Notes under the pieces: generated by a model
Seen by the model: only the letters and a program-made list of their open reading frames with translations
Database searches by the model: none
What the model was told of the DNA's origin: nothing
Translations under genes and position numbers: made by a program
Shown here: positions 1 through 29,916 of the stretch, one piece after another
Numbering within the stretch: position 1 is the stretch's first letter
Layout of the letters: the number at the start of each line of letters is the position of its first letter
Origin: a virus
Taxonomy: Duplodnaviria > Heunggongvirae > Uroviricota > Caudoviricetes
Length of the DNA stretch: 32,125 nt
IMG/VR virus record: IMGVR_UViG_2703718850_000013
Direction: 5' to 3' (one strand)

Positions 1-489
1 ATGGCAAATAAAGCACGAGATTACGACAATACACCATTCCTACGCATTGCGGGGAATTTTGGAGACTATGACAACGATCTTACACCAGAAGCAAAACAGA
101 TAATTGATGAAGCAATAGCATCAGTCCCAATGGGTAACGGTAAGCCATATAGTGGATTTAAGATCTATTACATCGTTTTCAATTTGATCACATTCAGTAC
201 TGAGAAAGTTTTAGCCAGGTTACATCTTTACCAGGACTATCATATAAAAGAAGTTCAGGAACGTGTAAGTGAATCTACCGCAGTAAAGGTAAGGCGTGTA
301 GCAACCGCAGTATCAAAAGCTCTTATAGCAGCACATAAACGCAAAGTGAAGCTATTCAAAGTGCAAAAGGACGGAATGCACTACATAGACAACAAACAGT
401 TCTATGAGACGTTAGCAAACGCACATGATAGCGGAGCATCAGCAGAGGAACTAATTATTATTCTACAGGGTTTCATTGATGGTAAATGA
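1..489 (+). CDS. hypothetical protein (162 aa), function unknown
   Basis: Uninterrupted ORF starting with ATG at window position 1; no recognisable motif. May be N-terminally truncated by the window edge. Confidence 0.45.
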   Translation: MANKARDYDNTPFLRIAGNFGDYDNDLTPEAKQIIDEAIASVPMGNGKPYSGFKIYYIVFNLITFSTEKVLARLHLYQDYHIKEVQERVSESTAVKVRRVATAVSKALIAAHKRKVKLFKVQKDGMHYIDNKQFYETLANAHDSGASAEELIIILQGFIDGK

Positions 490-502
490 AGCATTTTTTA
501 AC

Positions 503-631
503 TCCATTAATGGAATGAGTTAATCCACTAATAGAGATTTTATTCCATTAATGGAGTGTTATATTCCAACATATATGGCTTGAAACCCGCATTCTACCGT
601 TGAAATTGTGAATTTTACTTCATTAATGGAA
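503..631. promoter_or_regulatory. cluster of three 12-bp palindromic sites (TCCATTAATGGA at 503-514 and 544-555; variant TCATTAATGGA at 620-630), operator-like
   Basis: Exact repeated dyad-symmetric sequence read directly from the intergenic region after the first ORF; a TCCACTAAT half-site also occurs at about 524-532. Confidence 0.4.
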
Positions 632-1117
632 CACTATAATATAATAACACATATAAAATGGACTGAAGTCCGAAGATCAAAACCTCGCAAGCTCGCCTTT
701 GATCTTAGAATTTATAACCAGACTTTCGCCCTTTCAGGTCGAGCAAGTCCTTTACTTGCTTTCGCTCAAACAAACCCCATGTACTCACCAAAGTGATTAA
801 TAAAGTATTTGGGGTCGACCTACGGTCTAAAGTATTCGTGAGTACTACGCGGTCGTAAACTCCCTTGTTTGGGTCGTTCGCTGTTGAAGCTCACTAAAGT
901 GAACCACTACCCATACTAGCTAGGAACTTAATTAATTAAAGTGTGAAGCCGCACCGCCGGATGAATACGCAACACACAAGCCACCGAGAGGCATACTATG
1001 AGGAAATGAAAGTGAGTAGGGAGTCTGTGTATACCCATTAGACTATGAAAATAAACTGGCCTTTATTATAGAATCACACCTTTTTAATAAATACCAGTAC
1101 TACAGAGGATAATAAAA

Positions 1118-1776: not shown

Positions 1777-2520
1777 TCATTTTTTCTTTAGAGTTATGAA
1801 GTTATCAATTGGATAGTTATCATCATATATATCTTTTATGAAAGATGAAATCTTATTGTGAAGTGAAATTGCTTTTGACTGTATAACGAAAAGCTCACTA
1901 CTAGTTTGATCCCTCACACATTCATCGGCCTGTATAAGTGCAGGAACCTCAGAACTTGCAATATAGAAATCGATACTCAGTCCGTTATATTCATCAATAT
2001 TTAATTTAAGTTCAGCAATAATGTTTTTTGTGTATTCGCTTAAAGCATAATTAGTTCTATCAATAGATTTTAAGGAATTAATAACGGAGTAAGAAGTGAA
2101 GAATAAATCGGAAACAAGAGCATCTGTTTCCTTCATAAACTCATCATGTGAATCTTGGGGTATGGTCTCGTTTTTTAAATGATTGCGATATTTTTTGGAG
2201 AATGTCACTAATTGATGTTTTAAAATTAAGGTTGAAGTACGTACTTTATTAAGATCTTGATAAATTGCTTTCTCAATAACACCATATACTACATCATAAT
2301 GTTTTTGCGACAACCATTCAGGTGCTTTTAGGTATGCTTGGTAGGCTACCCATAGTGTACCTAATGTACCTACAGCACTACATAATGTTCCAATTAAAGT
2401 TACCCACTCCCATCCTTTCGAACCAGAAAATAATATTTTTACACCAACTAATATAGCAATTAGCAGCAGTAATAGTACGGTACTTAGTAGTATTAAATTA
2501 TATTTTTTAATATTAAGCAT
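1777..2520 (-). CDS. 2TM membrane protein, paralog of 3498..4199 (start re-chosen at internal ATG)
   Basis: N-terminus MLNIKKYN...VKILFSGSKGWEW parallels MNIKTIN...VKVLFAGSRGFEW of the 3498..4199 product; two hydrophobic helices then an about 180-aa helical soluble region. The track start at 2568 adds 16 residues absent from the paralog. Confidence 0.6.
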   Translation of the reverse strand: MLNIKKYNLILLSTVLLLLLIAILVGVKILFSGSKGWEWVTLIGTLCSAVGTLGTLWVAYQAYLKAPEWLSQKHYDVVYGVIEKAIYQDLNKVRTSTLILKHQLVTFSKKYRNHLKNETIPQDSHDEFMKETDALVSDLFFTSYSVINSLKSIDRTNYALSEYTKNIIAELKLNIDEYNGLSIDFYIASSEVPALIQADECVRDQTSSELFVIQSKAISLHNKISSFIKDIYDDNYPIDNFITLKKK

Positions 2521-2584
2521 GTTAATCTCATTTCTTAAATAAAAGACATAGATGTATATATGTAGCATTGATGGATATATATTC

Positions 2585-2602
2585 CACTAATCATGATTAG
2601 TG
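2585..2602. promoter_or_regulatory. perfect 18-bp palindrome CACTAATCATGATTAGTG between two minus-strand genes
   Basis: Read directly; lies in the 118-nt gap between the 2639..3460 stop and the 2520 start, so it could be an operator or an attenuator hairpin. Confidence 0.3.
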
Positions 2603-2638
2603 CCTCTCTGATTAATAATGTGATACATGTCCATGTAA

Positions 2639-3460
2639 TTAATAACGGAAACTCCATGTTTTTCTACTCAAAGCTAACTTCTTATGGACAAGTAGAAATA
2701 CAAATATCTCATGGAGATATGGAACCAGAGGTTCTCTTATCCCTTTACTGTGCTCAATGTTGTCAATATCATCTTTAAATTTAGAAATTAGATAATAATA
2801 AGGCTGCAACATATCAATGATTTCAAACACAATATAAGGTGAAACGTTTATTACTTTCCAGGAAAGTATATACTCATCAATTTGGCTTAAAATCGCACCA
2901 TCAAGACCTCTATTCCAGGTGTAACCGTATGCTTTGTATTTGTCGGCCCATAAATTTAATTCTCTTTCTAGTTTTTGTTTTCTAGAATCAGTAATGTGTT
3001 TACGGAAGCAAGAATTAATTATTTCGTTCCACTGTGCTAACGGATCTTTGACTTCTTTTTTGCCTTTTACAATTTTATCAAGATTATAATATCTTGAAGC
3101 ATCAGCGAATTCAGAAAGCATTTCTAATATGAGGTTTTGCTGCCAGTTTAATTCCCACTCCAAATTGGGTAAATGGCTAGCACCATAGCTTGAACAGTTT
3201 TTATGAAGCTCCGCAATATTATGGCTGAATTTTTTAAGTGTACGGAAGTCTGGCTTCTCAAGATTATTTTCGATCATATGATTGAGTATGAAGATAATCT
3301 TAAAAAACCTTTCTATGCCAATTGATAATTGAAAGAAGCTGCTATAGAAGCTACCTTTATCATGTGCTCTACATTTCCGCACAGCAGTAAGCCCACCACC
3401 TATTGAGGTACTGGACAAATAAGACTCTACCATGAATTGATTAAATGACTCCCCAAGCAT
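2639..3460 (-). CDS. hypothetical cytoplasmic protein (273 aa), possible Abi/HEPN-like (weak)
   Basis: ORF with AAGGA Shine-Dalgarno 6 nt upstream of ATG at 3460; no TM segment; an R-x4-H motif (RKCRAH) near the N-terminus is the only HEPN-like hint. Confidence 0.55.
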   Translation of the reverse strand: MLGESFNQFMVESYLSSTSIGGGLTAVRKCRAHDKGSFYSSFFQLSIGIERFFKIIFILNHMIENNLEKPDFRTLKKFSHNIAELHKNCSSYGASHLPNLEWELNWQQNLILEMLSEFADASRYYNLDKIVKGKKEVKDPLAQWNEIINSCFRKHITDSRKQKLERELNLWADKYKAYGYTWNRGLDGAILSQIDEYILSWKVINVSPYIVFEIIDMLQPYYYLISKFKDDIDNIEHSKGIREPLVPYLHEIFVFLLVHKKLALSRKTWSFRY

Positions 3461-3497
3461 AAGCTTTCCTTTTTATTTACATCAATTAACTATAAAT

Positions 3498-4199
3498 TTA
3501 GCTGAACGAATAATCAGTATCAATATTTGTTTCACATAGCTCGTACTGAAATATGGCAGCTAGCTCTCTTTTAACACTTTCAAGATTTTCTGTAGCTGCA
3601 ATTACGTCCTCATGCTTGGGGCAATTAATATGTTTGCATATGGTCAATAGATATATATATTGATTGTCTAAATATGACTGCCTTAACTCTAATATATTTT
3701 TAAATAAATTTTCAAGCCGTTCGCTTAACTTAATATCAAACCTGGCTAGCATTGACCTTGTCGTATATAGCTTAGCAAGTTCAGATAAATCACTTGTGGC
3801 CTTTTTATTAATTTCAGCAGCAACTTTAGATTTTATTTCATCTGTCAGTTCTTTATTATCCTGAACATATTTCCTGATGGAAGCACGAACTATACCATCA
3901 TTATATAAACGTGAATTTATTTCCCATAACTGCATCTCAAATTTCATAGCCAACTGATGTGAGGTAGAAAGGGATTTTAATTTTTTATTCTGAACGAACC
4001 AATTATTTGCTACAAAAGCAGCACAAAGAGCTGTAGACGCAATCACGATATTGCATAACGCACTTGTTAAATCAGCTGCGTTCCCCCATTCAAACCCCCT
4101 GCTACCAGCGAATAGAACCTTAACGAGTACTAAGACTGCTAAAAACAGAAGTACTGCAACAATGCCGACAAGAGTAGAGTTTATAGTTTTTATATTCAT
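3498..4199 (-). CDS. 2TM membrane protein, paralog of 1777..2520
   Basis: Two N-terminal hydrophobic helices then a helical soluble domain; its ATG overlaps the upstream gene's TGA (ATGA at 4196-4199), implying coupling. Confidence 0.6.
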   Translation of the reverse strand: MNIKTINSTLVGIVAVLLFLAVLVLVKVLFAGSRGFEWGNAADLTSALCNIVIASTALCAAFVANNWFVQNKKLKSLSTSHQLAMKFEMQLWEINSRLYNDGIVRASIRKYVQDNKELTDEIKSKVAAEINKKATSDLSELAKLYTTRSMLARFDIKLSERLENLFKNILELRQSYLDNQYIYLLTICKHINCPKHEDVIAATENLESVKRELAAIFQYELCETNIDTDYSFS

Positions 4200-4747
4200 A
4201 ATTTATCAGCTATGTTAACTTCACTATAGAGCAAGCCTTTCAATTTCATCAAAGCTTCCCAAATTTCAGTTGGCTTACCGCTACAATTTCTAAGTAATAT
4301 TTCATCGTTTTCTTGTTTACTCAATGATGAATCATAAAACCGTGCTCCCAATTCTTCAAAATCATTTATAGCATTAGTAACCGTCCAAATCGCATCGTGA
4401 ATTTGTGGTGTCATGTATAATGTATAATCGAGAAGGAAGTCACTTGCTTTACTTTTAATTAAATCCTGTTTATAAAGCATAATTTGATCTAAAAGATCAC
4501 CATCATCATAAAAATTAAAATTTTCTGGAAGATTCAAAGAATTAATAAACTGAATGAAAGGTTTAATAGTTTGCTTTTTTTCTTTTAATTCATCTTCGAG
4601 TATTTTGAATAAAAGTTGTTTTTTTAGTTTTTCGTTCTCATATTTTTTAGTGATTAATTGGCTTGCCAATGTTACACCCGCAGCTATTAATGCACCGCCT
4701 AAAGTACCACCGACTGCAATGAGTTGTGTAATGGTTTCAGCTTCCAT
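4196..4747 (-). CDS. single-pass membrane protein (first gene of the putative four-gene operon; start re-chosen)
   Basis: One N-terminal TM helix (ITQLIAVGGTLGGALIAAGVTLA) then an about 150-aa soluble domain. The track start at 4771 is TTG; the ATG at 4745-4747 (MEAETITQ) is used here. No strong SD, so the start is uncertain. Confidence 0.5.
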   Translation of the reverse strand: MEAETITQLIAVGGTLGGALIAAGVTLASQLITKKYENEKLKKQLLFKILEDELKEKKQTIKPFIQFINSLNLPENFNFYDDGDLLDQIMLYKQDLIKSKASDFLLDYTLYMTPQIHDAIWTVTNAINDFEELGARFYDSSLSKQENDEILLRNCSGKPTEIWEALMKLKGLLYSEVNIADKL

Positions 4748-4818
4748 TTTTTTAGAAATCCAATATATCAAAGTGAAAAATGAACTTTACCATAATAACC
4801 ATTCTGGCGTAAACTATT

Positions 4819-4880
4819 AGCGACACGCCCCACTCATAAAGGGTAGGTTTGTTTAGTTGGTGTGTGTGGGACGTGTCGCT
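4819..4880. repeat. inverted repeat: 9-bp arms AGCGACACG (4819-4827) and CGTGTCGCT (4872-4880) with a 44-nt spacer
   Basis: Read directly; relatively GC-rich arms in an AT-rich intergenic region next to the octamer array. Confidence 0.5.
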
Positions 4881-4896
4881 GAACAGTTGGACTATG

Positions 4897-5024
4897 TTCT
4901 TATGTTCTTATGTTCTTATGTTCTTATGTTCTTATGTTCTTATGTTCTTATGTTCTTATGTTCTTATGTTCTTATGTTCTTATGTTCTTATGTTCTTATG
5001 TTCTTATGTTCTTATGTTCTTATG
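4897..5024. repeat. perfect tandem array, 16 x TTCTTATG (CATAAGAA on the minus strand)
   Basis: 128 nt of uninterrupted 8-nt periodicity read directly; intergenic between the HNH gene stop (5053) and the start of the 4747 operon. Confidence 0.95.
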
Positions 5025-5052
5025 TCTATATTTCTCAACCTTTAGTTGAAAA

Positions 5053-5856
5053 TCATTTAGGATAACTAACACAAGTATGACCAGAAATTACCATCATAAA
5101 TTGATTATTCTTTAAACCTACAAAGGGAAATGAAGCATAATCAATATTAGCCGTTGTCATATTAAAATGAAGAGATTGATCATATTGAGTCATTTCAGTT
5201 GCATGAATAGGAAATGTTCCTTGCTCCTTCAGTGTAACCAAAAAAGATATTGGGAAAAAATGTAAGCAAGAACATATACTATGATGTCCATTATTGTAGA
5301 ATGTAACTGACTGAGCAGTAATTTGTTTTCTGAATGGATAAAACCAATAGTAAATATTATGAGTTGCCCCAATGTCTGGATTCCTGCCTAATACAAAATT
5401 TCTCAATGGAGTATAAAAAGGACTATCAACAATAGGCTTCATACAATCTTTTACTGAAGTTGCAGCCAGAAGGTGTCCAATCATTGCTCTTAGAAATTTA
5501 TCCGCATCAAATTTTAATGAAATATAATTTTTGTAAAAGAACTTACCACTAAAATAATCATTTAACTTTTCGATGAATTCAGTTGTAACACGGCCTATTT
5601 CTGCATCCATTGATCCTAAAATATTCGAGTTACAATTGTGACAAATGGTACGAAAAGTTGTCCCGCTTTTTGCTTTAATTGGTGGTACTCGAGTATTAGA
5701 GAAATACTCAGAAATCGTTTTTTGTAACATAGGTGAAGGTTTAGATGCACATTGCGGGGGAACATGGTCTTTTTTTAATTTGCCAAAATTACCACATATT
5801 ACACAATATCCATTAGCTATTTTTACATGGTCAATTCTTTCAGAGACAAATTTCAT
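5053..5856 (-). CDS. HNH-endonuclease-domain protein with about 200-aa C-terminal extension of unknown function
   Basis: N-terminal CVICG-x7-DHVPP ... TICHNCN matches the HNH zinc-finger/His-Me pattern (CxxCG...DH..P...CxxCN). Confidence 0.6.
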   Translation of the reverse strand: MKFVSERIDHVKIANGYCVICGNFGKLKKDHVPPQCASKPSPMLQKTISEYFSNTRVPPIKAKSGTTFRTICHNCNSNILGSMDAEIGRVTTEFIEKLNDYFSGKFFYKNYISLKFDADKFLRAMIGHLLAATSVKDCMKPIVDSPFYTPLRNFVLGRNPDIGATHNIYYWFYPFRKQITAQSVTFYNNGHHSICSCLHFFPISFLVTLKEQGTFPIHATEMTQYDQSLHFNMTTANIDYASFPFVGLKNNQFMMVISGHTCVSYPK

Positions 5857-6179
5857 TCTGCAATCTCAAAAGTTAACATCACCAAAATATAGAGCATTCA
5901 AACACAATGTTCAATATGATTTTACTCTAACCAGTGTGCTATTTTTTATGCAAACTTATACATGGACGAATACTCAAACTGCGATAATAAACTGAAAATA
6001 TCGATATAAGAATTGATTTTATGAGTAATCATCATTATAGCCTATACCATGTAGCATTAACACTTTACCACCAAATAGAACATACATATACTATTGATTA
6101 TCGACCTAGGGTAAGTTTATCAATTATGGTACGATAGAATCTAAATAATCTATAGTAGCAAGAGGCTTAGGGGGAGATA

Positions 6180-6854
6180 ATGGAGTGGAAGAAAGAGCTT
6201 AGAGCAAAGTTTGAAAGAGACGAACTTAGAAGATTAATTTCTAATGTAAACTGGATTATATTCAAACCTAAAATAAAAAAGCAATTAGAAATACTATCAA
6301 CCCAATTATCAGGAGAGCATATAAGATTTAATATAATTGATATGCAAGATGAACCAGATGGTTATGGTTTTGATTGCCTGACATTTCAGATCGCTGATCG
6401 TATGACTGGAAATATGCGGCAGGAAAAAACTACCGAAAGCATAAAGTTTAATCATCATTGGCAAAAAGGAGCCGCACTTTCAATTACATATAGTGCGACG
6501 GGGGCTGTGCATATAATTCTTTTTCCGTCTACTTCAGATGATTCATTAGCAACACATGATTCCTTGATTGTCCATCATTCATATAACGTTAAACACATAA
6601 CACCAAAAAAAATAGAGAAAGCAGTAAAGAATTTACTTCATTATCACCGTGTTACAGGTGTTTTACACAAGGCCGCATTAAAAGATTTAATTTTAATCCG
6701 CTTACTGAAAATTAAGATGTTTTTTATTCAGTATAACGACAAAGAGAACAAGTTTAGAAGAGTTACAGCATTATATATACCTACATTAAGTCTTATAGTT
6801 TCGTTGGCTGCCGCAGTAGCATCTATTCTGGCATTAGTATCTGTTAAATCATGA
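6180..6854 (+). CDS. tail-anchored membrane protein (224 aa), unknown function
   Basis: Strong SD (GGGGGAG) before the ATG; single C-terminal hydrophobic helix (LSLIVSLAAAVASILALVSV); the only plus-strand gene in the island, convergent with the nucleotidyltransferase gene. Confidence 0.55.
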   Translation: MEWKKELRAKFERDELRRLISNVNWIIFKPKIKKQLEILSTQLSGEHIRFNIIDMQDEPDGYGFDCLTFQIADRMTGNMRQEKTTESIKFNHHWQKGAALSITYSATGAVHIILFPSTSDDSLATHDSLIVHHSYNVKHITPKKIEKAVKNLLHYHRVTGVLHKAALKDLILIRLLKIKMFFIQYNDKENKFRRVTALYIPTLSLIVSLAAAVASILALVSVKS

Positions 6855-6860
6855 TGATTA

Positions 6861-6890
6861 TAAGCCAGCAACTAACTGGCTTATAAATTA
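6861..6890 (+). terminator. putative intrinsic terminator after 6180..6854
   Basis: Stem TAAGCCAG / CTGGCTTA with 7-nt loop, followed by a T/A-rich tail, 7 nt after the stop codon. Confidence 0.45.
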
Positions 6891-7099
6891 GAAATTGGAA
6901 ACTATCTCTTCTCACAAAACTGCTATCTTTAGCGATAAGGGAATGTAATCTCCTGATACTGATGGTAGAGGAGCGGGTCATACAATCTTAGCAATCTCAT
7001 TTAGCTGTACGACGGTGGAATGTTTCAACTGTACTCAATTCTTACAAGTAAAAATATCGAGAATGATTTTTTGGATTCAAGCAAAGACAATGAGCTGTA

Positions 7100-7127
7100 C
7101 CCCCTTATAATTAGTAATATAAGGGGG
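7100..7127. terminator. hairpin CCCCCTTATA-loop-TATAAGGGGG between convergent genes
   Basis: 10-bp perfect stem with 8-nt loop, 5 nt downstream of the 7133..7909 stop; possibly bidirectional. Confidence 0.45.
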
Positions 7128-7132
7128 CAAGA

Positions 7133-7909
7133 TTATTTTATGGGTAAAATTTTCTTTATTTCATTTTCGGCGGCAAAATGATTGTTTAACTGCTCATAAT
7201 ATTTTGACATCATAACTGAATTTTTTAGACGCTGAATCTTATCTTTTTTCCATTGTGCGAGATAATAGGAACCTGAAAGTTGTTCTACAGCAGAGTAAAA
7301 ATATTCTTTAAGGGTAGAGCACCAAAAATAGTTAAAGCTAACAATATCTTTTTCAAGTTGATACGACTCAAAGACATAACCTGCATTGGCATTCCAATAT
7401 TTCATTATGCGAATAAGAGGCTTAATTAAATTGTTATTATTTTTATTGCAATTAGTTAAATCAGTATTGAACGCATTGGGATCGGTATTCATCCAACGGT
7501 TCAAAAAATCCTGGTTGGAAGGGATTTGATAACCAAATAAAATATTATGAGATGCAGGGACAAGCTCGAAAGTAATATGATTAAGGTTCAATTGAATAGT
7601 AGGGTGGCTTTGCTTTATTTCAGATGTACGATAGTAATAATTTACAAAACCCCTTAGCTTGTTTAGGTAGGTCTGAGGCTGATATATTACATTTTTGAAT
7701 ACAACCATATAATCAACATCAGAAGAAGGATCATAGCTACGAGGAAGCATTGTATTACGTGAATATGAGCCAAATACAAAATGACTAACAAGTTCACCAG
7801 CAAAATAACCATTCAGTCTGTTTTTTATGGTTGCAATTGAATTCGTTATTGTAATATCTCTTTGATAAGCATTGCTTTTAATAGACTCAAGATAGGTACT
7901 GACTGTCAT
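7133..7909 (-). CDS. pol-beta-type nucleotidyltransferase, SMODS/CD-NTase-like
   Basis: FGSYSRNT...SDVDY (hG[GS]-x9-13-DxD) plus a later acidic residue (FELVP); AAGGAA SD 6 nt upstream; start lies 2 nt after the upstream gene's stop. Confidence 0.6.
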   Translation of the reverse strand: MTVSTYLESIKSNAYQRDITITNSIATIKNRLNGYFAGELVSHFVFGSYSRNTMLPRSYDPSSDVDYMVVFKNVIYQPQTYLNKLRGFVNYYYRTSEIKQSHPTIQLNLNHITFELVPASHNILFGYQIPSNQDFLNRWMNTDPNAFNTDLTNCNKNNNNLIKPLIRIMKYWNANAGYVFESYQLEKDIVSFNYFWCSTLKEYFYSAVEQLSGSYYLAQWKKDKIQRLKNSVMMSKYYEQLNNHFAAENEIKKILPIK

Positions 7910-7911
7910 GT

Positions 7912-8415
7912 TTATTCCTTGTCAATATTATACTTAGTAAAGCCTTGGTTAACATCTCTTTGAGTTTTCTCATAAGCCCACCGAGGAATATTTGGCGAAC
8001 TTGAATTAAGTTGATTGCGTCGATCAGAGTAACTCGTAAGTTTTTCAATCAAAGTTTTATCAGTAAAATCAAAATTAGAAGTCAATATTTCCCTAAATAT
8101 TCTAACTTCATTCTTTAATTTATTATATTCATTTGCTGCTGATTTATGAAGTGCAGCACGCTTACTTGGGTTAAGAGACGTATTTAATGCAGTTAGAATT
8201 GTAGCAGTTATGGAAATAGCTACAACAGCATTGGCTGTACTCTTGATTGCGGCAATACCACTCAAAGCGGTTAAGATTGCTAATGGTACACCGAACCACA
8301 GATTCAGCTTATCCCATCTATCAGAAACATTATAATGAGATTTAGAAGAGTACAGAGCGTCCTCTTCTATACGATGACACTCAGAAATGACTGTTTGGAT
8401 GAGCTTCTGATTCAT
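7912..8415 (-). CDS. 2TM membrane protein, SLATT-like effector candidate (start re-chosen)
   Basis: About 40-aa N-terminal region, two TM helices (LWFGVPLAILTALSGIAAI; AVVAISITATILTAL), helical C-terminal region; tightly coupled to the nucleotidyltransferase gene. ATG at 8413-8415 has a GGAG SD; the track start is a GTG two codons upstream. Confidence 0.55.
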   Translation of the reverse strand: MNQKLIQTVISECHRIEEDALYSSKSHYNVSDRWDKLNLWFGVPLAILTALSGIAAIKSTANAVVAISITATILTALNTSLNPSKRAALHKSAANEYNKLKNEVRIFREILTSNFDFTDKTLIEKLTSYSDRRNQLNSSSPNIPRWAYEKTQRDVNQGFTKYNIDKE

Positions 8416-8579
8416 AAACACTCCAACAAATCCGATTCCCTAACAGTATAACATGGTAGGGTTAATAAATACTATAGGTACTTCCCTCTGAATAGACACA
8501 ATCGGGAAGTTTCGCCGCGAACTATTTTTTTTGCATATTAAATATTTTAAATAACACAAACAAAACCTGGATAAACAAA

Positions 8580-15455: not shown

Positions 15456-17138
15456 ATGGCTTTTATTACTAACAACACAAGTGTATGGATTAACACCGAC
15501 ACATTAAACAGTGACCCCAAATCGAAGGGATTTAAAGAAGTACCAGAATTAAGCGGGTTCCCTTCATTCGGTCACAGTACTGCAACCCTTGCTATTGAAA
15601 CATATGACTCTGAATACATCGAAAAAGTAGCAGGTGATAGCACATATGGTGATGTCACTATTACGGTTAACTGGGTTCCTGCTAAACATAAGTTTCTTGA
15701 TGACATCGTAAAAAGTCGCCAATTAGTACAAATGAAGGTAGAGATCCCCGATGAAGGACAGAATGACCTTACGGTTAACTATGCACTTTATAATGGTTAT
15801 CTGGCTTCTGTATCCACCAGTGGTGATTATGATTCTGTTACTTCCCGTTCCTACGTATTCACCCCAAACGAACAACTTTCTTCGGGTATTCTTGACAGTA
15901 CGATAGTCCCTCTAAATCGCGGAGACTGGGGCGTAGGTGCAAACGGTATTGAGTTTCCAAGTTATCAGGGGCGTGACGGTAATGCTTTTATTAAGATCCC
16001 TGGTGCAGGTTCACCAACAGGGACAGATGTACTCGGTATTAATAACCTTGATTCGAACTTTGGTACACAATTGGTTATCAGTAAGACAGGTACGCCAATA
16101 ATTAACGTGCGTAACTATGGTGCATCTATGGGGGCATGGTACAAGGTCTATACCAGTGCTGATAAACCTACACTGACAGAACTGGGTGCTGCATCAAGTG
16201 CATCCCTTGCAGACTACGTACCGATTACCCGTACTATCAATAGCAAACCACTAACTGCTAATATTACACTACTGGCTTCTGATATCGCTGATGTATACAG
16301 TAAGACGTATATAGATCAGAACGTAGTCCCAAAAGTATTCCAGTTAAACGGTCATGCACTATCCGGTACGGCATTAAACTTAGTTGCCGCAGATATTCTT
16401 GATGTGTATTCACAGACTCAGGTTGATACTTCATTTGTTAAAAAAACAACTACTGTTAACGGTTTAAGTCTTTCCCAGAATATAACACTGACAGCCGCAC
16501 AACTCCCAGATATGGCAAGTATTGTTTTTACTAATAACACATATGTACCAAAAACATACTTAATCAACAATAAGCCATTATCAGGAACTAACATTCAATT
16601 AGTTGCTGCTGATATTCCTGATGTGTACTCACGTACCCAGTCAAATGATCTATTTGCACTACGTATCACCACTATTAACGGGTATGCTCTTAACAGTAAT
16701 ATAGTACTGAATTTTGATGATGTAGGAACATATTCAAAGAAACAGATCGATGACAAAGACAAGGTTCTGAAGGAAGATATTGATACGAAGGTAACAATTG
16801 TAGATGATATTCTTAAACTAAATACCCTTGTAAATAATTCATTAGAAATAGATTTGAGTGATAGTAAAACTACATTCACCGTGACTCTATCACAACCAAC
16901 GTCAAACTTCTCTGTACTAAATGCAAGTGGTAATGACAAAAAGAGTCAAACATTTCAGGTGCTTATTAAGCAGGGTACAGGGGCAAATAAAATATCCTGG
17001 CCTACAAACATTTTATGGTCTTATGGGCGTGTTCCAGTATTAACCTTTACAAAAGATTCTACTGATGTATTTCAGTTTGTCACAGTAGACGGGGGTAGTA
17101 CTTGGTACGGCTCTCTACTAATGGCAGATATGAAATAA
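15456..17138 (+). CDS. tail-tube-domain protein with C-terminal tail-fibre-like tandem repeats
   Basis: N-terminal region (…ITVNWVP…YALYNGYLASVSTSGDYDSVTSRSYVFTPNE) is homologous to the 158-aa protein at 20048 (…LSVNWKPG…YSIVNGYISSDVVGGDFDAVATREFVMTITGE); the C-terminus carries about five 35-aa repeats (xNGxxLSxNIxLxAADIxDVYS…). Confidence 0.6.
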   Translation: MAFITNNTSVWINTDTLNSDPKSKGFKEVPELSGFPSFGHSTATLAIETYDSEYIEKVAGDSTYGDVTITVNWVPAKHKFLDDIVKSRQLVQMKVEIPDEGQNDLTVNYALYNGYLASVSTSGDYDSVTSRSYVFTPNEQLSSGILDSTIVPLNRGDWGVGANGIEFPSYQGRDGNAFIKIPGAGSPTGTDVLGINNLDSNFGTQLVISKTGTPIINVRNYGASMGAWYKVYTSADKPTLTELGAASSASLADYVPITRTINSKPLTANITLLASDIADVYSKTYIDQNVVPKVFQLNGHALSGTALNLVAADILDVYSQTQVDTSFVKKTTTVNGLSLSQNITLTAAQLPDMASIVFTNNTYVPKTYLINNKPLSGTNIQLVAADIPDVYSRTQSNDLFALRITTINGYALNSNIVLNFDDVGTYSKKQIDDKDKVLKEDIDTKVTIVDDILKLNTLVNNSLEIDLSDSKTTFTVTLSQPTSNFSVLNASGNDKKSQTFQVLIKQGTGANKISWPTNILWSYGRVPVLTFTKDSTDVFQFVTVDGGSTWYGSLLMADMK

Positions 17139-19996
17139 TGAAACCACACAATATAGATAATGCATATCAAATGATCGAAGGTCAGTTTAAGTTCTTGGCA
17201 CGTAATACTGGCCTTACAACAAATAATAAGACACAGCACTATGTATTAAACCCAGATAATGTACTTGCAAACAACCGTCACTTTATTGCAGAAACTGGAT
17301 GGGAGGCACAGCCGGAAGGTGATGCAACTACAGAAGGTCAAAGCCTCCAGATTCTGGGGGCAATATATGTGTATCAGGCAACTAAAGACCCTTTCTATCT
17401 ACAGAAGGCAAAAGAGTACTTTAACGCATATCACAAGGCGTTCTATCGTGGTGCACCATTTCCAGATCCACCGAGTTCATCACTACGCTGTAATTGGATT
17501 TGTAATGGGAAGGCTCCAGTACTGGCACACTACCCATTAGATCCAGAATATCCGACGCATGGCGGTTTTAAAGGGACACTATTCACATGGGCTAATGGCC
17601 TTACAAAGATCCCACATGGTGCACCACACTGGGGTGAATACCTCGATGCAGTATGGTTTGCCTTCCCTAAGCGTGCGGGACTTGGCTGGAATCAGGTTAA
17701 CGCAACTGCTTATCTGTGGCTTGCCAATGAAGACTCAATAGACTGGGACACTAAAGCACCAACCTATGACGTCGAATGGATCATTGATCGTACCGGACGT
17801 AAGGTAGACTCAAACGGCACTGTACTGCAATCCGGTCTAACTGGTCAGGAAGGTACAGTACAGTTAAAGAATAAAACCATTACTGGTGAATATCGTTTTA
17901 ACTATGCAACCCGAAACCCTGTAGAACATGGCGGGTATATGTTCAAGCGTAATGAACGCTGGCATAACCGACCTGTACACGTACCGATTGATAACTATGG
18001 TTCTTTGGACTTCTCTGATAATGCATCAGATGCCGAATTATGGTTTTGTCAGGCAGCCAAGCTACTTTGGGATATTACAGGAGAACGCCAGTATTATCTT
18101 GCGTGGCAATGTGCACTATTAACCTGTTATGGATATTCAGATATTGACAAGTACGATATGTTCTTTCGTAAATCTACTATTGCCGTAACACCTTTTACTG
18201 ATGGTATTTCATACGACTACTTCTACCCAAGTGAGCAAGTAGCATCATATTCCCGTGATGCACAGGGTTATATTGTAATAAATCAAAGTGCATCCGCACA
18301 GACGATGTTAGAACAACAATCAATCTGGTTTAAATTCAATAATAACTCAAAGTTTCATATTGAATATGGTGGTGTTGATAATACCAGTACTGCAATGTCA
18401 GTTTCTGCTGAAGTCACAGTGAATAAAACAAAAACAGAAGAAGGTGCAATTGATTATCGGTGTGGTCTACCAATGACTAATCCAGATGGCTCTATCACTA
18501 CAATGGACATTCCTATGAATCGTTTTACACGTGTAATGAAACCAGATGGCTCTAATTATATGACTGCTGATCTACGTATGATCGCCGATTATGGAGATAA
18601 CACGGTAACAAACTTTGAATATCAGAGTGGAGTACTTGGAAATTATTACGATAACGTCGTGTCTACAACAATGGATGGTGACGGGGGACAGGTGGTGGGG
18701 TTTTGGATATTCACACCAGAGACTGCCAATATTCAATCTTTTACCTATCGTTCATATGATGATGATTTTAACTTTCGTATAAGTGATGATAATAAATGGC
18801 GTTGGTGGGCTATGCTCCCTGCAACAAATGGTGAATGGGTTACAAAGACTTTTACTATTGCTGACTTCAAACTAAACGGTTATCAACCCGATCACCCCGA
18901 AATTGAAGATCCAGATAACCCAGGAGAATGGATTCAACCTGATCCTATTCCCGCAAGCCCAGTACTAACGAACCGTGAATCTTTCACACTGCTACTTGAT
19001 GCAGATCCAGTAAATGGTGTGAATGGGAAGATTGACTGGTATTGTATTAATGATTTGCCTGCGATGTATACAGATGGTGGGACAGGTGATTATTCGGTCA
19101 CAGTACTGCTTACGTTTAACGACACAACTGGTAATGGTTACACAGCCCGTTTAGGTGACTGTACTATTAAGGATTATATGCTAGATAGTCTTGCGTATAC
19201 TCCGGGTTTAATTCCGTTCTCTAACATTACCGATCCCTATGCCCAGTTATATTCTGGGTGGCGTGGTCTACCGTATCCGGGTTATCAACTACCGGCGATC
19301 TGGTGCTTTAAAGGAACAGAAATAGATCATACTCGCTTAAATAACAGTATCAATTTTCTATATGATTCTCAGGCATGGTTTACAAATAAATTTAAACCAT
19401 CATTACCAGGACCATGTGCACAGGCTTTCGTATGGAACAGACAGGACGCTTTAGCATATGCCCCTGATGGTAAGCCAGATCAATTCATAATGCAGCACTG
19501 GTACGCCGAAGCATGGAGTGGATACGAACCAAGGGCTTTCTTTGGTGGGTGTGATGCAGTACATGAATTATGGTCACGACAAGACAGTACTGTAATACCT
19601 CCTAAACTAATATCTTTCTGCCAGAACTGGATGAACTATCTAAAATGGTTCATGAAAAATAATGGCGGTAAAGCTCCTACCTATTTTAGGGATAATGGTT
19701 CTGTAGAATATGATGGCTTTACCCCTCATATGTCCGGTCTATGGTTAGCAGGGGCATGTATGATGGCTATCGCCGGATATCCAGATCATGAGCTAATTCA
19801 ATTACTATTTGATGAAATACAACTTAACTATGCAGTTATTTCACCAAATCATGTAATGAATGGTACATGGCCTGCGTCAATCAGAACAGGTAATGAAACA
19901 ACTGCCGAAAACAATAGTATGTTCTTTGGTTTCTATTCGGGTGAACTTTTACGCGGATTGGGGCTATATGTGCATTACTACAATCTTCATAAATAA
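17138..19996 (+). CDS. large virion-associated protein (953 aa), possible carbohydrate-active tailspike or depolymerase
   Basis: TAATG overlap with the upstream gene (track start 17102 is TTG); aromatic-rich (many W/Y); no catalytic motif identified. Confidence 0.5.
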   Translation: MKPHNIDNAYQMIEGQFKFLARNTGLTTNNKTQHYVLNPDNVLANNRHFIAETGWEAQPEGDATTEGQSLQILGAIYVYQATKDPFYLQKAKEYFNAYHKAFYRGAPFPDPPSSSLRCNWICNGKAPVLAHYPLDPEYPTHGGFKGTLFTWANGLTKIPHGAPHWGEYLDAVWFAFPKRAGLGWNQVNATAYLWLANEDSIDWDTKAPTYDVEWIIDRTGRKVDSNGTVLQSGLTGQEGTVQLKNKTITGEYRFNYATRNPVEHGGYMFKRNERWHNRPVHVPIDNYGSLDFSDNASDAELWFCQAAKLLWDITGERQYYLAWQCALLTCYGYSDIDKYDMFFRKSTIAVTPFTDGISYDYFYPSEQVASYSRDAQGYIVINQSASAQTMLEQQSIWFKFNNNSKFHIEYGGVDNTSTAMSVSAEVTVNKTKTEEGAIDYRCGLPMTNPDGSITTMDIPMNRFTRVMKPDGSNYMTADLRMIADYGDNTVTNFEYQSGVLGNYYDNVVSTTMDGDGGQVVGFWIFTPETANIQSFTYRSYDDDFNFRISDDNKWRWWAMLPATNGEWVTKTFTIADFKLNGYQPDHPEIEDPDNPGEWIQPDPIPASPVLTNRESFTLLLDADPVNGVNGKIDWYCINDLPAMYTDGGTGDYSVTVLLTFNDTTGNGYTARLGDCTIKDYMLDSLAYTPGLIPFSNITDPYAQLYSGWRGLPYPGYQLPAIWCFKGTEIDHTRLNNSINFLYDSQAWFTNKFKPSLPGPCAQAFVWNRQDALAYAPDGKPDQFIMQHWYAEAWSGYEPRAFFGGCDAVHELWSRQDSTVIPPKLISFCQNWMNYLKWFMKNNGGKAPTYFRDNGSVEYDGFTPHMSGLWLAGACMMAIAGYPDHELIQLLFDEIQLNYAVISPNHVMNGTWPASIRTGNETTAENNSMFFGFYSGELLRGLGLYVHYYNLHK

Positions 19997-28985: not shown

Positions 28986-29010
28986 GGGGCATTAATGCCC
29001 CTTTTTATTT
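28986..29010. terminator. bidirectional intrinsic terminator GGGGCATTAATGCCCC + T-tract
   Basis: Perfect 16-bp palindrome flanked by an A-run upstream and a T-run downstream, between convergent genes; it overlaps the endolysin stop codon. Confidence 0.7.
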
Positions 29011-29451
29011 GTTAATTAAATCTTTAATCATCTGGTTAAGTCTATTCGGTGTCTGACGATACCATAAACTATCCTTTGCCTGTTTAATTGCTTCTGTGTA
29101 ATTATTGTTTAGTAATGCAATGATCATCTTTTTAAACTTCTTAGTACCACTTAAGCCTAACTGAAAAATCATGATAACCATGAAGTCTTCCCAGTCCTGT
29201 GGTAATTTCAAATTTAAGGTAGATAAATTACGTTTGGCAATGCCAATATCTTTATCCAGTAGTTTATCTGCTTCATCCTCGTTAATGCCGTTAGGGAACG
29301 TCTCAGAGGCTTTTAGAAGATGTCCATATCCAATCGTATCTTTGTTCTCACTACATTTATACACCCAGAATTTACCATTGCGATAATAACCCATATGGGC
29401 CTGGTATTCTTTCGTACCTTCATATATTTTTAATTTTTCTATTAAACACAT
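29005..29451 (-). CDS. endolysin, GH24 T4-lysozyme-like (start corrected)
   Basis: DTIGYGHLL and SLWYRQTPNRLNQMI align with T4 lysozyme TIGIGHLL and SRWYNQTPNRAKRVI; the ATG at 29449-29451 has a GAGG SD, whereas the track start at 29505 adds 18 residues with no counterpart. Confidence 0.85.
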   Translation of the reverse strand: MCLIEKLKIYEGTKEYQAHMGYYRNGKFWVYKCSENKDTIGYGHLLKASETFPNGINEDEADKLLDKDIGIAKRNLSTLNLKLPQDWEDFMVIMIFQLGLSGTKKFKKMIIALLNNNYTEAIKQAKDSLWYRQTPNRLNQMIKDLINK

Positions 29452-29487
29452 AAATACCTCATAAACTATTATTTGTGGGGTATTTAT

Positions 29488-29916
29488 ATGAAATGGACAA
29501 TGCATGATCCTGAGACATGGGATTATGAAGATATAAATGACGGGAGGTATGCAGCTTTTGTATATATGATCACTTTTGACGATGGTTCATATTATTTTGG
29601 TGTAAAGTCAATCTTCAAAAGTATTCGGGATGTAAAGAAGCTGAAGCCAACTACAAAGGAATCCAACTGGGAGAATTATTATTCTTCCTCGAAGAAGGTG
29701 CAGGCAATGGTTGATTCAGGCCTGAACTATGAAAAACAAATACTATGGTGTTTCAGAACGACGAATGAAGCTGAGCAAGTAGAAGCGGCATTGATTCTAT
29801 TCTTAGGACAGCAATCAAATAATTTAAATCTTGCCGTGATGTGCAAAGTACGGCTTGGTAAAAATCGTTCTGAAACATTCAAAGTACTGCAACAATTATT
29901 AGAGAGGTTATCATGA
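29488..29916 (+). CDS. hypothetical protein, possible stand-alone GIY-YIG nuclease domain
   Basis: FVY-x10-YFG then Arg, Glu and Asn at roughly GIY-YIG spacing; weak. Start set at ATG 29488 (track start 29473 is TTG). Confidence 0.35.
   Translation: MKWTMHDPETWDYEDINDGRYAAFVYMITFDDGSYYFGVKSIFKSIRDVKKLKPTTKESNWENYYSSSKKVQAMVDSGLNYEKQILWCFRTTNEAEQVEAALILFLGQQSNNLNLAVMCKVRLGKNRSETFKVLQQLLERLS

What the first reader, a model, noticed from the sequence alone, without database searches (positions are those of the whole stretch)
503..631. Three copies of a 12-bp palindrome in a 600-bp ORF-free region
TCCATTAATGGA occurs twice exactly and once as a variant within about 130 bp after the first ORF. 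The spacing and dyad symmetry fit an operator array for a dimeric DNA-binding protein (repressor-like or replication-initiator-like), and no coding explanation exists.
Basis: seen in the sequence. Interest (0 to 1): 0.5.

Follow-up and report, generated by a model that had tools for sequence, protein, structure and literature searches.

The report
Prophage promoter-control sites for neighbouring gene
The repeated palindrome is real: it is one prophage lineage's version of a conserved set of protein-binding sites that sit on and upstream of a promoter for a structured RNA and are most likely recognised by the uncharacterised protein encoded next door.

Summary
Observation confirmed and extended. 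TCCATTAATGGA is exact at 503 and 544 and has one mismatch at 619 (3 hits vs 0.11 expected). There is a degenerate copy at 524 and a site-like copy at 470-482 inside the 3' end of ORF1.

The window is an E. coli/E. albertii prophage with a large serine recombinase. Twelve further relatives carry an ORF1-family gene (~160 aa, no Pfam, all 'hypothetical') linked to the same kind of array. The motif differs by lineage, but in most relatives the layout is the same: about -116(+), -98(-), -78(-), and one copy directly before a TATA-rich -10 with no -35.

In relatives the motif is asymmetric, so the dyad symmetry is a lineage quirk and not evidence for a dimer. Downstream lies a structured RNA that is conserved in relatives and has no Rfam match.

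ORF1 is the best candidate binder. It is the only gene always linked to the array, including in the jumbo phage RaK2. The upstream ribbon-helix-helix (RHH) protein does not co-vary with the motif.

Favoured mechanism: a looped repressor-operator switch, inferred rather than shown. Rivals are a P1 Lpa-like activator and origin iterons. This is a new variant of a known kind, of moderate interest.

The parts
1..489 (+). ORF1, 162 aa: member of a small uncharacterised phage protein family and the candidate binder of the sites
470..482 (-). Site S0: CCATCAATGAAAC, followed leftward by CCTG + TAGAAT (465-460). It mirrors site D plus TATAAT and may be a leftward promoter-operator unit.
   Evidence: 2 mismatches to the oriented 13-mer. 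(arms 455-481 / 621-647, 78% complementary). It lies in coding sequence, so this reading is tentative.
470..498 (+). Hairpin plus U-run spanning the ORF1 stop codon: a terminator-like end of the ORF1 transcript just before the array
   Evidence: dG -7.4, z -2.2. The L006 orthologue has dG -11 and z -4.2 with compensating changes, and was called a terminator. The hairpin is absent in L012 and L017.
503..516 (+). Site A: TCCATTAATGGA (oriented 13-mer CCATTAATGGAAT, 504-516)
522..535 (-). Site B: degenerate copy TCCACTAATAGA, 21 bp after A and 20 bp before C
   Evidence: 2 mismatches. The position is conserved in L006, L009 and L012.
542..555 (-). Site C: TCCATTAATGGA (oriented 13-mer on the minus strand, 542-554). 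With its flanks it is a 16-nt exact inverted copy of site A.
   Evidence: (arms 501-516 / 542-557, 100%)
563..599 (.). Spacer elements between the distal array and site D. ATTCC half-site-like (563-567) continues the 20-bp period. CCCGCATTCTACCG (586-599) is conserved in lineages with different motifs.
   Evidence: Invariant columns in alignment A3. Also seen in L017 and L018. Function unknown.
619..632 (+). Site D: TTCATTAATGGA(AC), the promoter-proximal copy, ending 2-4 bp before the -10 hexamer
   Evidence: A proximal copy directly before a TATA-rich hexamer was found in all 15 loci tabulated.
635..640 (+). TATAAT, a -10-like hexamer with no recognisable -35. The 40-mer 620-659 is the AT-richest of the region (GC 17.5%).
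   Evidence: Sequence. The scan did not call a promoter here because no -35 exists. That this is a promoter is inferred from conservation and from the structured RNA that starts about 20 nt later.
647..1100 (+). Conserved structured leader or non-coding RNA (start and end inferred). H1 is 660-671, H2 is 673-706, and a conserved core lies at 810-900.
   Evidence: z -2.3 on the plus strand against -1.2 on the minus strand. H1 has 2 pairs with compensatory changes. In H2 all pairs are kept, but most of the 'both sides changed' counts come from a 1-nt register shift in the alignment. The core is found by nhmmer in window, L004, L013, L005, L137, L138 and L139, which are the training sequences, and in none of 113 control loci. 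A few G-U pairs on the plus strand. No Rfam family. 71.5% DNA identity in unannotated DNA of other E. coli.

Best explanation
The palindromes are this lineage's version of a conserved cis-regulatory array. The array consists of recognition sites for the product of the adjacent gene, ORF1, a new all-helical protein family.

The layout is two or three distal sites at a 20-21-bp period (A, B, C) plus one site (D) lying on the spacer region of a -35-less promoter (TATAAT 635-640). That promoter transcribes a structured leader RNA and the rightward genes.

Favoured mechanism (inferred, not shown):
- ORF1 protein occupies D and blocks RNA polymerase.
- Distal sites about 78 bp away, on roughly the same helical face, raise occupancy by cooperative binding or DNA looping.
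- The array therefore works as the phage's lineage-specific on/off switch, an immunity-type operator.
- A mirrored site plus -10 at 482-460 may give the switch a second, leftward output that is antisense to ORF1.

Shown: the sites, their non-random clustering, the conserved layout, the concerted change of motif between lineages, the linkage to ORF1, and the structured RNA downstream.

Inferred: that ORF1 is the binder, that 635-640 is a promoter, and that the effect is repression.
For: 1. Clustering is far beyond chance.

2. The geometry is the same although the motif differs by lineage. Positions relative to the proximal copy are -116(+)/-98(-)/-78(-)/0(+) in window, L006, L009 and L012. L018 has -126/-108/-88/0, L138 has -107/-87/0 and L019 has -168/-149/-128/0, so the shifts are close to multiples of 10 bp.

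3. The motif changes in concert at all sites between closely related prophages. TCCATTAATGGA becomes TCCGATAATGGA / CATTATCGGA while the flanks stay conserved. This pattern is expected of specificity-determining protein-DNA pairs.

4. The proximal copy always ends 0-4 bp before a TATA-rich hexamer.

5. ORF1 is the only gene always linked to the array. This holds in serine-recombinase prophages, in a phage with a split single-subunit RNA polymerase (ssRNAP) (L138, where the array lies upstream of RHH-ORF1), and in jumbo phage RaK2, where ORF075 is followed by 5 copies of GAATTAGGGACAC and no RHH or HNH protein was recognised next to the module.

6. The other candidates fare worse. The RHH beta-strand does not co-vary with the motif. 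The HNH_3 gene is a pseudogene here and is absent in L018.

8. The site lies over the -28 to -15 region of the promoter. ORF1 has a terminator-like 3' end here and in L006 only. Sites flank the promoter-like element in RaK2. All three points fit occlusion.
Against: - There is no binding or expression data.
- The promoter has no -35 in any lineage, which argues for an activator-dependent promoter rather than one that needs repressing.
- ORF1-family genes also occur in lytic jumbo phages, which need no lysogeny repressor.
- ORF1 is co-directional with the controlled promoter and upstream of it, unlike classic divergent repressor genes.
- Co-variation of ORF1 with the motif cannot be separated from shared phylogeny with about 14 lineages.
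Confidence: 0.45

Rival explanations
1. The binder is still ORF1 but the sign is opposite. ORF1 would be an activator that replaces -35 recognition at a -10-only promoter, as P1 Lpa does at late promoters (a 9-bp box a few bp upstream of -10). The distal sites would act as a reservoir or enhancer.
For: There is no -35 in any lineage. The P1 record annotates late promoters as a '-22 region' plus -10, and lpa (150 aa) is immediately followed by LPpac, which matches ORF1 (162 aa) followed by box and -10. The ORF1 family occurs in lytic phage RaK2. A strong conserved promoter plus attenuator lies upstream of RHH-ORF1, which suggests regulated rather than constitutive expression.
Against: There is no sequence relation to Lpa (hhalign probability 0.2%). 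Lpa boxes are single and dispersed before many late operons, whereas here all sites sit in one cluster and none occurs before the terminase, tail or lysis genes. Concerted diversification of specificity between close relatives is more typical of immunity or incompatibility determinants. The spacing to the best -10 hexamer varies by a few bp between lineages.
Confidence: 0.2
2. The array is the phage replication origin. The sites would be iterons for ORF1 acting as initiator, the AT-rich 620-659 segment would be the unwinding element, and the downstream transcript or hairpins would serve in priming.
For: The 20-21-bp repeat period starts at the 3' end of the putative initiator gene, and an AT-rich block (GC 17.5%) follows the last site. 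No replication gene was recognised among the 30 window ORFs scanned or in the RefSeq (NCBI) annotation of the N61 copy. Lineage-specific site/protein pairs are also typical of initiator/iteron systems. The fixed unit 'array + TATA + long RNA' recalls transcription-primed origins.
Against: The sites are in mixed orientation rather than direct repeats. ORF1 shows no similarity to Rep, winged-helix or lambda-O-type initiators by Pfam, by PDB sequence or by fold. No DnaA box occurs within 400-1200. In short-leader relatives the RNA runs straight into a ribosome-binding site and ORFs, which fits an mRNA leader. A 162-aa protein is small for an initiator that must also recruit a helicase.
Confidence: 0.15
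3. The sites are bound by another factor, not by ORF1. Candidates are the conserved 49-aa RHH protein encoded about 0.5 kb upstream of ORF1, the HNH_3 endonuclease, and a host protein.
For: An RHH gene is conserved in the serine-recombinase prophages where the upstream region was read, and in L138. RHH proteins commonly bind tandem or inverted arrays.
Against: The RHH beta-strand is identical in L006 and L005, whose motifs are unrelated. It differs between window and L006, which share one motif. RaK2 has the ORF1 homologue and the sites, and no RHH was recognised next to it. HNH_3 is a pseudogene here and is missing in L018. A host factor would not explain motifs that differ between prophages of one host.
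Confidence: 0.07
4. The site plus TATA is a promoter, or a promoter mimic, for a T7-type single-subunit RNA polymerase. It would serve to sense or exploit an infecting T7-like phage.
Against: A K11 PWM scan is not significant: the best hit, in L020, scores 12.3 bits and 7% of shuffles reach it. The 15-mer TAATGGAACACTATA gives only single, chance-level hits in IMG/VR and no multi-copy genome. hhalign of the ORF1 family against K11 RNAP is negative. No RNA_pol domain was found in the window ORFs scanned. The distal copies lack the TATA part.
Confidence: 0.03

Closest known systems
Phage immunity operators with auxiliary sites and looping (lambda OR/OL, Mu O1-O3, 186 and P2 arrays)
   Same: Several clustered copies of one recognition sequence. 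One copy lies over the core promoter and the others tens of bp away in helical phase. The specificity differs between otherwise similar phages. The regulator gene is adjacent.
   Different: The candidate regulator belongs to no known repressor family. Its gene points toward the controlled promoter instead of away from it. In relatives the sites are asymmetric 13-16-mers. The controlled promoter lacks a -35. No SOS-cleavable or antirepressor partner was identified.
P1 C1 repressor and its asymmetric 17-bp 'monovalent' operators
   Same: The operator is asymmetric and is read in a defined orientation. The P1 record lists monovalent operators. The phage is a temperate enterobacterial one.
   Different: P1 operators are scattered over the genome, whereas here all sites are in one cluster. 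No sequence relation was tested or seen.
P1 Lpa-dependent late promoters (-22 box plus -10, no -35)
   Same: A short, partly palindromic box lies a few bp upstream of a -10 hexamer in place of a -35. A gene of about 150-160 aa lies directly upstream of such a promoter.
   Different: There is no detectable homology. Here there is a single locus with extra -10-less copies, not a dispersed regulon.
Iteron origins (lambda ori/O; P1, F and pSC101 Rep-iteron origins)
   Same: The repeat period is about 20 bp, next to or inside the 3' end of the binding protein's gene. An adjacent AT-rich block is present. Specificity differs by lineage.
   Different: The repeats are in mixed orientation. There are no DnaA boxes, and the protein shows no Rep-like or O-like similarity. 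One repeat abuts a conserved -10 that is followed by a structured RNA.

Membership tests
Phage repressor-operator (immunity) array | Three or more clustered copies of one recognition sequence, beyond chance | tested here: met
   3 hits at <=1 mismatch against 0.11 expected, plus 2 degenerate copies
Phage repressor-operator (immunity) array | At least one site overlaps the core of the controlled promoter | tested here: inconclusive
   Site D ends 2-4 bp before TATAAT 635-640, and this arrangement is conserved in all 15 loci. The promoter itself is inferred, not mapped.
Phage repressor-operator (immunity) array | Operator specificity diverges between related phages together with the regulator | tested here: met
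   Same motif at 79% ORF1 identity. Concerted 2-nt change at 66-70% identity. Unrelated core at <50% identity. Shared phylogeny cannot be separated from this.
Phage repressor-operator (immunity) array | The cognate protein binds the sites and represses | not testable with these tools
   Needs EMSA or footprinting and reporter assays
Iteron-type replication origin | Direct repeats of 17-22 bp period bound by the initiator | tested here: inconclusive
   The period is 20-21 bp, but orientations are mixed (+,-,-...,+)
Iteron-type replication origin | Adjacent AT-rich unwinding element, and usually DnaA boxes | tested here: inconclusive
   The AT-rich segment 620-659 is present. No DnaA box at <=1 mismatch within 400-1200.
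Iteron-type replication origin | The neighbouring protein is a recognisable initiator (Rep winged helix, lambda-O-like) | tested here: not met
   No Pfam, PHROG or PDB sequence hit and no such fold hit
P1 Lpa-type late promoter | A -10 hexamer, no -35, and a short box just upstream | tested here: met
   Sequence, compared with the P1 record
P1 Lpa-type late promoter | The activator is homologous to Lpa | tested here: not met
   hhalign probability 0.2%
P1 Lpa-type late promoter | The box recurs before several late operons | tested here: not met
   No further copy at <=1 mismatch in the 32 kb
T7-group ssRNAP promoter | Significant match to a known promoter consensus, several copies per genome, and a cognate RNAP gene | tested here: not met
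   No RNA_pol domain was found in the window ORFs scanned.
RHH (Arc/Mnt/CopG-type) operator | The base-contacting beta-strand co-varies with the operator sequence | tested here: not met
Known RNA family (for the downstream RNA) | Match to an Rfam covariance model | tested here: not met

The most novel reading that the evidence does not exclude
The array would be the gate of a portable control module that has not been described before and contains few proteins. The module comprises an ORF1-family DNA binder, a small RHH protein, and a mosaic structured RNA of 300-480 nt with no Rfam family. It is shared by otherwise unrelated phages: serine-recombinase siphovirus-like prophages of Enterobacteriaceae and a phage with a split ssRNAP. 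ORF1 plus its sites also occurs alone in RaK2-type jumbo phages. In these prophages no replication or classical repressor gene was recognised. On this reading the RNA, not a protein, is the effector that the sites control, for example as a replication primer, a processive-antitermination RNA or an immunity RNA.
Probability: 0.2. Interest if true: 0.8.

Novelty: new variant of a known kind. Interest (0 to 1): 0.5.

Why it matters
If the reading is right, it defines the switch region of a family of enterobacterial prophages that has not been studied. These prophages have low GC, use a serine integrase, and have no recognisable repressor or replication genes.

It would assign a first function, sequence-specific DNA binding, to a protein family now annotated only as hypothetical. 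That family also occurs in jumbo Klebsiella phages.

It supplies a natural series of orthogonal protein/site pairs, with at least 8 distinct 13-mers on one conserved scaffold, that could be tested directly.

It also points to a conserved structured RNA, immediately downstream of the gated promoter, that matches no curated family.

Tried and rejected
- **Rfam.** Gathering and E-value modes found no family for 480-1130. No tRNA or tmRNA was found.
- **Known phages.** blastn of 1-2000 against known phages found nothing. The only close phage hit for a neighbouring gene (5053-5856) is a cargo gene of the P2-like phage pro147, which is irrelevant here.
- **Representative genomes.** A genome-contig scan with the ORF1 alignment found no relative. 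Alignment A1 was too divergent to scan.
- **T4 oriE analogy.** This was prompted because the RaK2 module lies among gp5-like baseplate genes. T4 repEA and repEB are only 45-50 aa, so they are not homologues.
- **T7-type promoter or promoter-binding-domain idea.** The PWM scan was not significant. The IMG/VR 15-mer scan gave chance-level hits. hhalign against K11 RNAP was negative.
- **Lpa homology.** Negative.
- **ORF1 fold.** The first AF2 run with 5 sequences was poor (pLDDT 56.5). Foldseek against PDB found nothing. BFVD returned only uncharacterised phage proteins. The afdb50 library was unavailable.
- **Other checks.** There are no DnaA boxes near the array. A literature search for the 12-mer returned only an unrelated primer. 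The P1 genome paper is not held.
- **RNA core structure.** The RNAalifold consensus for the core is weak because the MAFFT alignment mis-registers the hairpins, so only single hairpins are claimed.

Full report
**1. The observation**

TCCATTAATGGA is exact at 503-514 and 544-555. It occurs with one mismatch (TTCATTAATGGA) at 619-630. At up to one mismatch the window holds only these three copies. The expectation is 0.11, and none of 100 dinucleotide shuffles reaches three. The 20 kb upstream in the host chromosome holds none.

- TCCACTAATAGA at 524-535 fills a 21/20-bp period.
- CCATCAATGAAAC lies on the minus strand at 470-482, inside the end of ORF1.

Read with their flanks, the sites are oriented 13-16-mers. 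Site A (501-516) and site C (542-557) are exact inverted copies of each other. The region 490-1117 has no ORF longer than 62 aa.

**2. Context**

The first 2 kb are 100% identical to the chromosome of E. coli N61. The ORF1 protein is also recorded from E. albertii. The element is a prophage of about 36 kb lying between yggS and yggR.

Its gene order is as follows:
- a large serine recombinase,
- a small membrane protein,
- a 49-aa ribbon-helix-helix (RHH) protein,
- a broken HNH_3 endonuclease gene,
- ORF1,
- the ORF-free region,
- a few small genes,
- a reverse-strand cargo block that includes SMODS/SLATT genes,
- lambda-type terminase, portal, capsid, tail and lysis genes.

No replication gene or classical repressor was recognised among the 30 ORFs scanned or in the RefSeq (NCBI) annotation.

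**3. Comparative evidence**

ORF1 belongs to a small family. It has 22 clusters with E <= 0.001 among 1.84 billion representative proteins, and all members are about 155-180 aa. There is no Pfam domain, and every named copy is 'hypothetical'.

I fetched loci for fourteen relatives. The arrays of thirteen are described here, and twelve are distinct lineages (L004 and L013 are near-identical). In every serine-recombinase prophage the ORF1 homologue is followed by 450-700 nt without ORFs. That stretch begins with repeats of a motif specific to the lineage.

Read in the orientation of the promoter-proximal copy, the motifs are:

| Locus | Motif |
|---|---|
| window, L006 | CCATTAATGGAAC |
| L009, L012 | CCATTATCGGAAC |
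| L017, L138 | CCATTATGAGAAC |
| L018 | CCATTGTGAGAAC |
| L004 | CCATTATGCGACC |
| L019 | CATTCTGGTAAC |
| L020, L137, RaK2 | AATTAGGG(C/T)AAC or AATTAGGGACAC |
| L139 | AATAACCGTAAC |

Outside the window lineage the motifs are not palindromes.

The layout is conserved although the sequence is not. Positions relative to the proximal copy are:

| Locus | Site positions |
|---|---|
| window, L006, L009, L012 | -116(+), -98(-), -78(-), 0(+) |
| L018 | -126, -108, -88, 0 |
| L138 | -107, -87, 0 (plus more upstream) |
| L019 | -168, -149, -128, 0 |

The shifts are close to whole helical turns. Between close relatives all the sites changed together while their flanks stayed the same.

**4. Who binds**

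Three proteins are encoded nearby.
- The HNH_3 gene is a pseudogene in this lineage and is absent in L018.
- The RHH protein is conserved, but its base-contacting strand does not follow the motif. L006 and L005 share ISVGVRLS and have unrelated motifs. Window and L006 share a motif and differ in that strand.
- ORF1 is the only gene always linked to the array. In L138 the array lies upstream of RHH-ORF1 instead of downstream. In the lytic jumbo phage RaK2 an ORF1 homologue (30.7% identity) is followed directly by five copies of GAATTAGGGACAC within 210 bp, one of them before TCTATTATTAAA. No RHH or HNH protein was recognised in the adjacent ORF074.

A monomer with two such modules would fit an asymmetric 13-16-bp site. 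This is a lead, not a demonstration.

**5. What the sites control**

The proximal copy always ends 0-4 bp before a TATA-rich hexamer. Here that hexamer is TATAAT at 635-640. No lineage has a -35. The 40-mer 620-659 is the AT-richest of the region.

About 20 nt downstream two hairpins begin, H1 at 660-671 and H2 at 673-706. H1 keeps pairing through compensatory changes at two pairs. H2 pairs in all six sequences, but most of its apparent double changes come from a 1-nt register shift in the alignment.

A further conserved core (810-900) is found in seven loci, including the L138 phage, and in none of 113 unrelated control loci. It contains a hairpin with visible compensating changes: GACC/GGUC, GGAC/GUCC and GGCC/GGCC. 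A few G-U pairs lie on the plus strand.

The plus strand folds better than shuffled sequence (z -2.3), while the minus strand gives -1.2. No Rfam family matches. The leader is mosaic: relatives combine the H1/H2 module and the core module differently.

These data make 635-640 a plausible promoter for a structured RNA or leader. The start site was not mapped.

**6. Further anatomy**

ORF1 ends in a hairpin plus U-run here and in L006, but not in L012 or L017.

A strong minus-strand terminator lies just upstream of the ORF1 start codon (dG -20.2, z -6.4). It recurs with a different sequence in most lineages. The site-like 13-mer at 470-482 on the minus strand is followed by TAGAAT and so mirrors site D plus TATAAT. 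Together these suggest a leftward transcript antisense to ORF1. This is tentative, because the sequence is also coding.

**7. Mechanism**

What is shown is a conserved, phased, lineage-specific array of recognition sites. One site lies on a promoter-like element, and the array is linked to ORF1.

I favour a looped repressor-operator switch (about 0.45) for four reasons:
- The proximal site covers -28 to -15.
- Auxiliary sites lie at phased distances.
- In RaK2 the sites flank the promoter-like element.
- Concerted diversification of specificity is what immunity determinants show.

The main rivals are these:
- An Lpa-like activator (about 0.2). The missing -35 and the presence of the family in a lytic phage favour it. 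The P1 record shows the same gene-box-(-10) layout. However, there is no homology and no dispersed regulon.
- Origin iterons (about 0.15). The 20-bp period, the AT-rich block and the lack of recognisable replication genes favour it. Against it are the mixed orientations, the absence of DnaA boxes and the absence of any initiator-like fold.

**8. Ideas tested and dropped**

The site plus TATA looks like T7-group promoters, and the K11 promoters were read from the phage record. However:
- a K11 matrix scan is not significant;
- the exact 15-mer occurs only at chance level in IMG/VR;
- ORF1 shows no profile similarity to K11 RNA polymerase.

T4 repEA and repEB are unrelated small proteins.

**9. 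Verdict**

The operator reading is supported in kind. The 'dimer because palindrome' argument is not supported. The sign of regulation and the binder remain inferences. This is a new variant of a known kind of element. It uses an undescribed protein family and gates an undescribed structured RNA.

Noticed in passing
window 647-1100 (H1 660-671, H2 673-706, core 810-900): A structured RNA or leader that is conserved in relatives and has no Rfam family. It is mosaic between relatives. 71.5% DNA identity was found in unannotated DNA of other E. coli. It contains a boxA-like CGCUCAAACAA motif and repeated AAAGTR motifs.
   Followed up: partly
whole window, especially 8.6-30.8 kb; also L138, L017, L004, L139, L021: The palindrome AGTACT is 7.7-fold over-represented: 71 copies against 9.2 expected. 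It is the most enriched 6-bp palindrome. It is nearly absent from the reverse-strand cargo block. It is enriched 4-14-fold in relatives, including a RaK2 segment. Unexplained.
   Followed up: partly
L138 235-2073(-) and 5601-6485(+): A relative carrying the ORF1/RHH/array/RNA module encodes a T7-type single-subunit RNA polymerase split into two genes on opposite strands. Pfam RNA_pol profile positions 3-143 and 145-376 match the two parts. The polymerase is only distantly related to known phage RNAPs.
   Followed up: partly
L003 19935-19967 (34-66 bp upstream of window position 1): A strong minus-strand intrinsic terminator lies directly upstream of the ORF1 start codon (dG -20.2, z -6.4). It is present with a different sequence in most relatives. 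It implies leftward transcription across ORF1, possibly from the mirrored site plus TAGAAT at window 482-460.
   Followed up: partly
L003 19206-19475 (about 0.5-0.8 kb upstream of the window): A conserved TTGGGA-N18-TATAAT promoter is followed by a terminator-like attenuator hairpin and then by the 49-aa RHH gene. The same arrangement occurs in most relatives examined, and the promoter type recurs downstream of ORF1 in L138.
   Followed up: partly
window 586-599: CCCGCATTCTACCG lies between the distal sites and site D. It is conserved in lineages whose ORF1 motifs differ (L006, L012, L017, L018). In some it is flanked by an ACATATAG/CTATATGT inverted repeat. It may be a site for a second, conserved factor.
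   Followed up: no
window 1777-8421, minus strand: A reverse-strand cargo block sits inside the prophage. It holds four unknown genes, a protein 51% identical to a cargo (moron) gene of the P2-like phage pro147 (5053-5856), and a SMODS nucleotidyltransferase plus SLATT pair (7133-8421). Positions 1670-2000 are 100% identical in about 88 other E. coli genomes, so this block is mobile on its own.
   Followed up: partly
L021 3543-4600 (Klebsiella phage RaK2 ORF074-ORF075): The ORF1 homologue of RaK2 sits with one other gene on the opposite strand inside a baseplate gene cluster. It is followed by a 36-bp direct repeat (two copies) and five motif copies, which looks like an inserted module.
   Followed up: partly
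window 17102-19996 versus L014 9050-13169: In E. coli N61 the 964-aa tail gene is interrupted by an IS3 element, whereas in the window it is intact. The window therefore comes from another host of the same prophage. An IMG/VR provirus (UViG 2698536560_000009) ends exactly at the ORF1 start.
   Followed up: no
window 29005-29916: A phage lysozyme gene on the minus strand overlaps the start of a SegE-like GIY-YIG homing endonuclease gene on the plus strand, within the lysis region.
   Followed up: no
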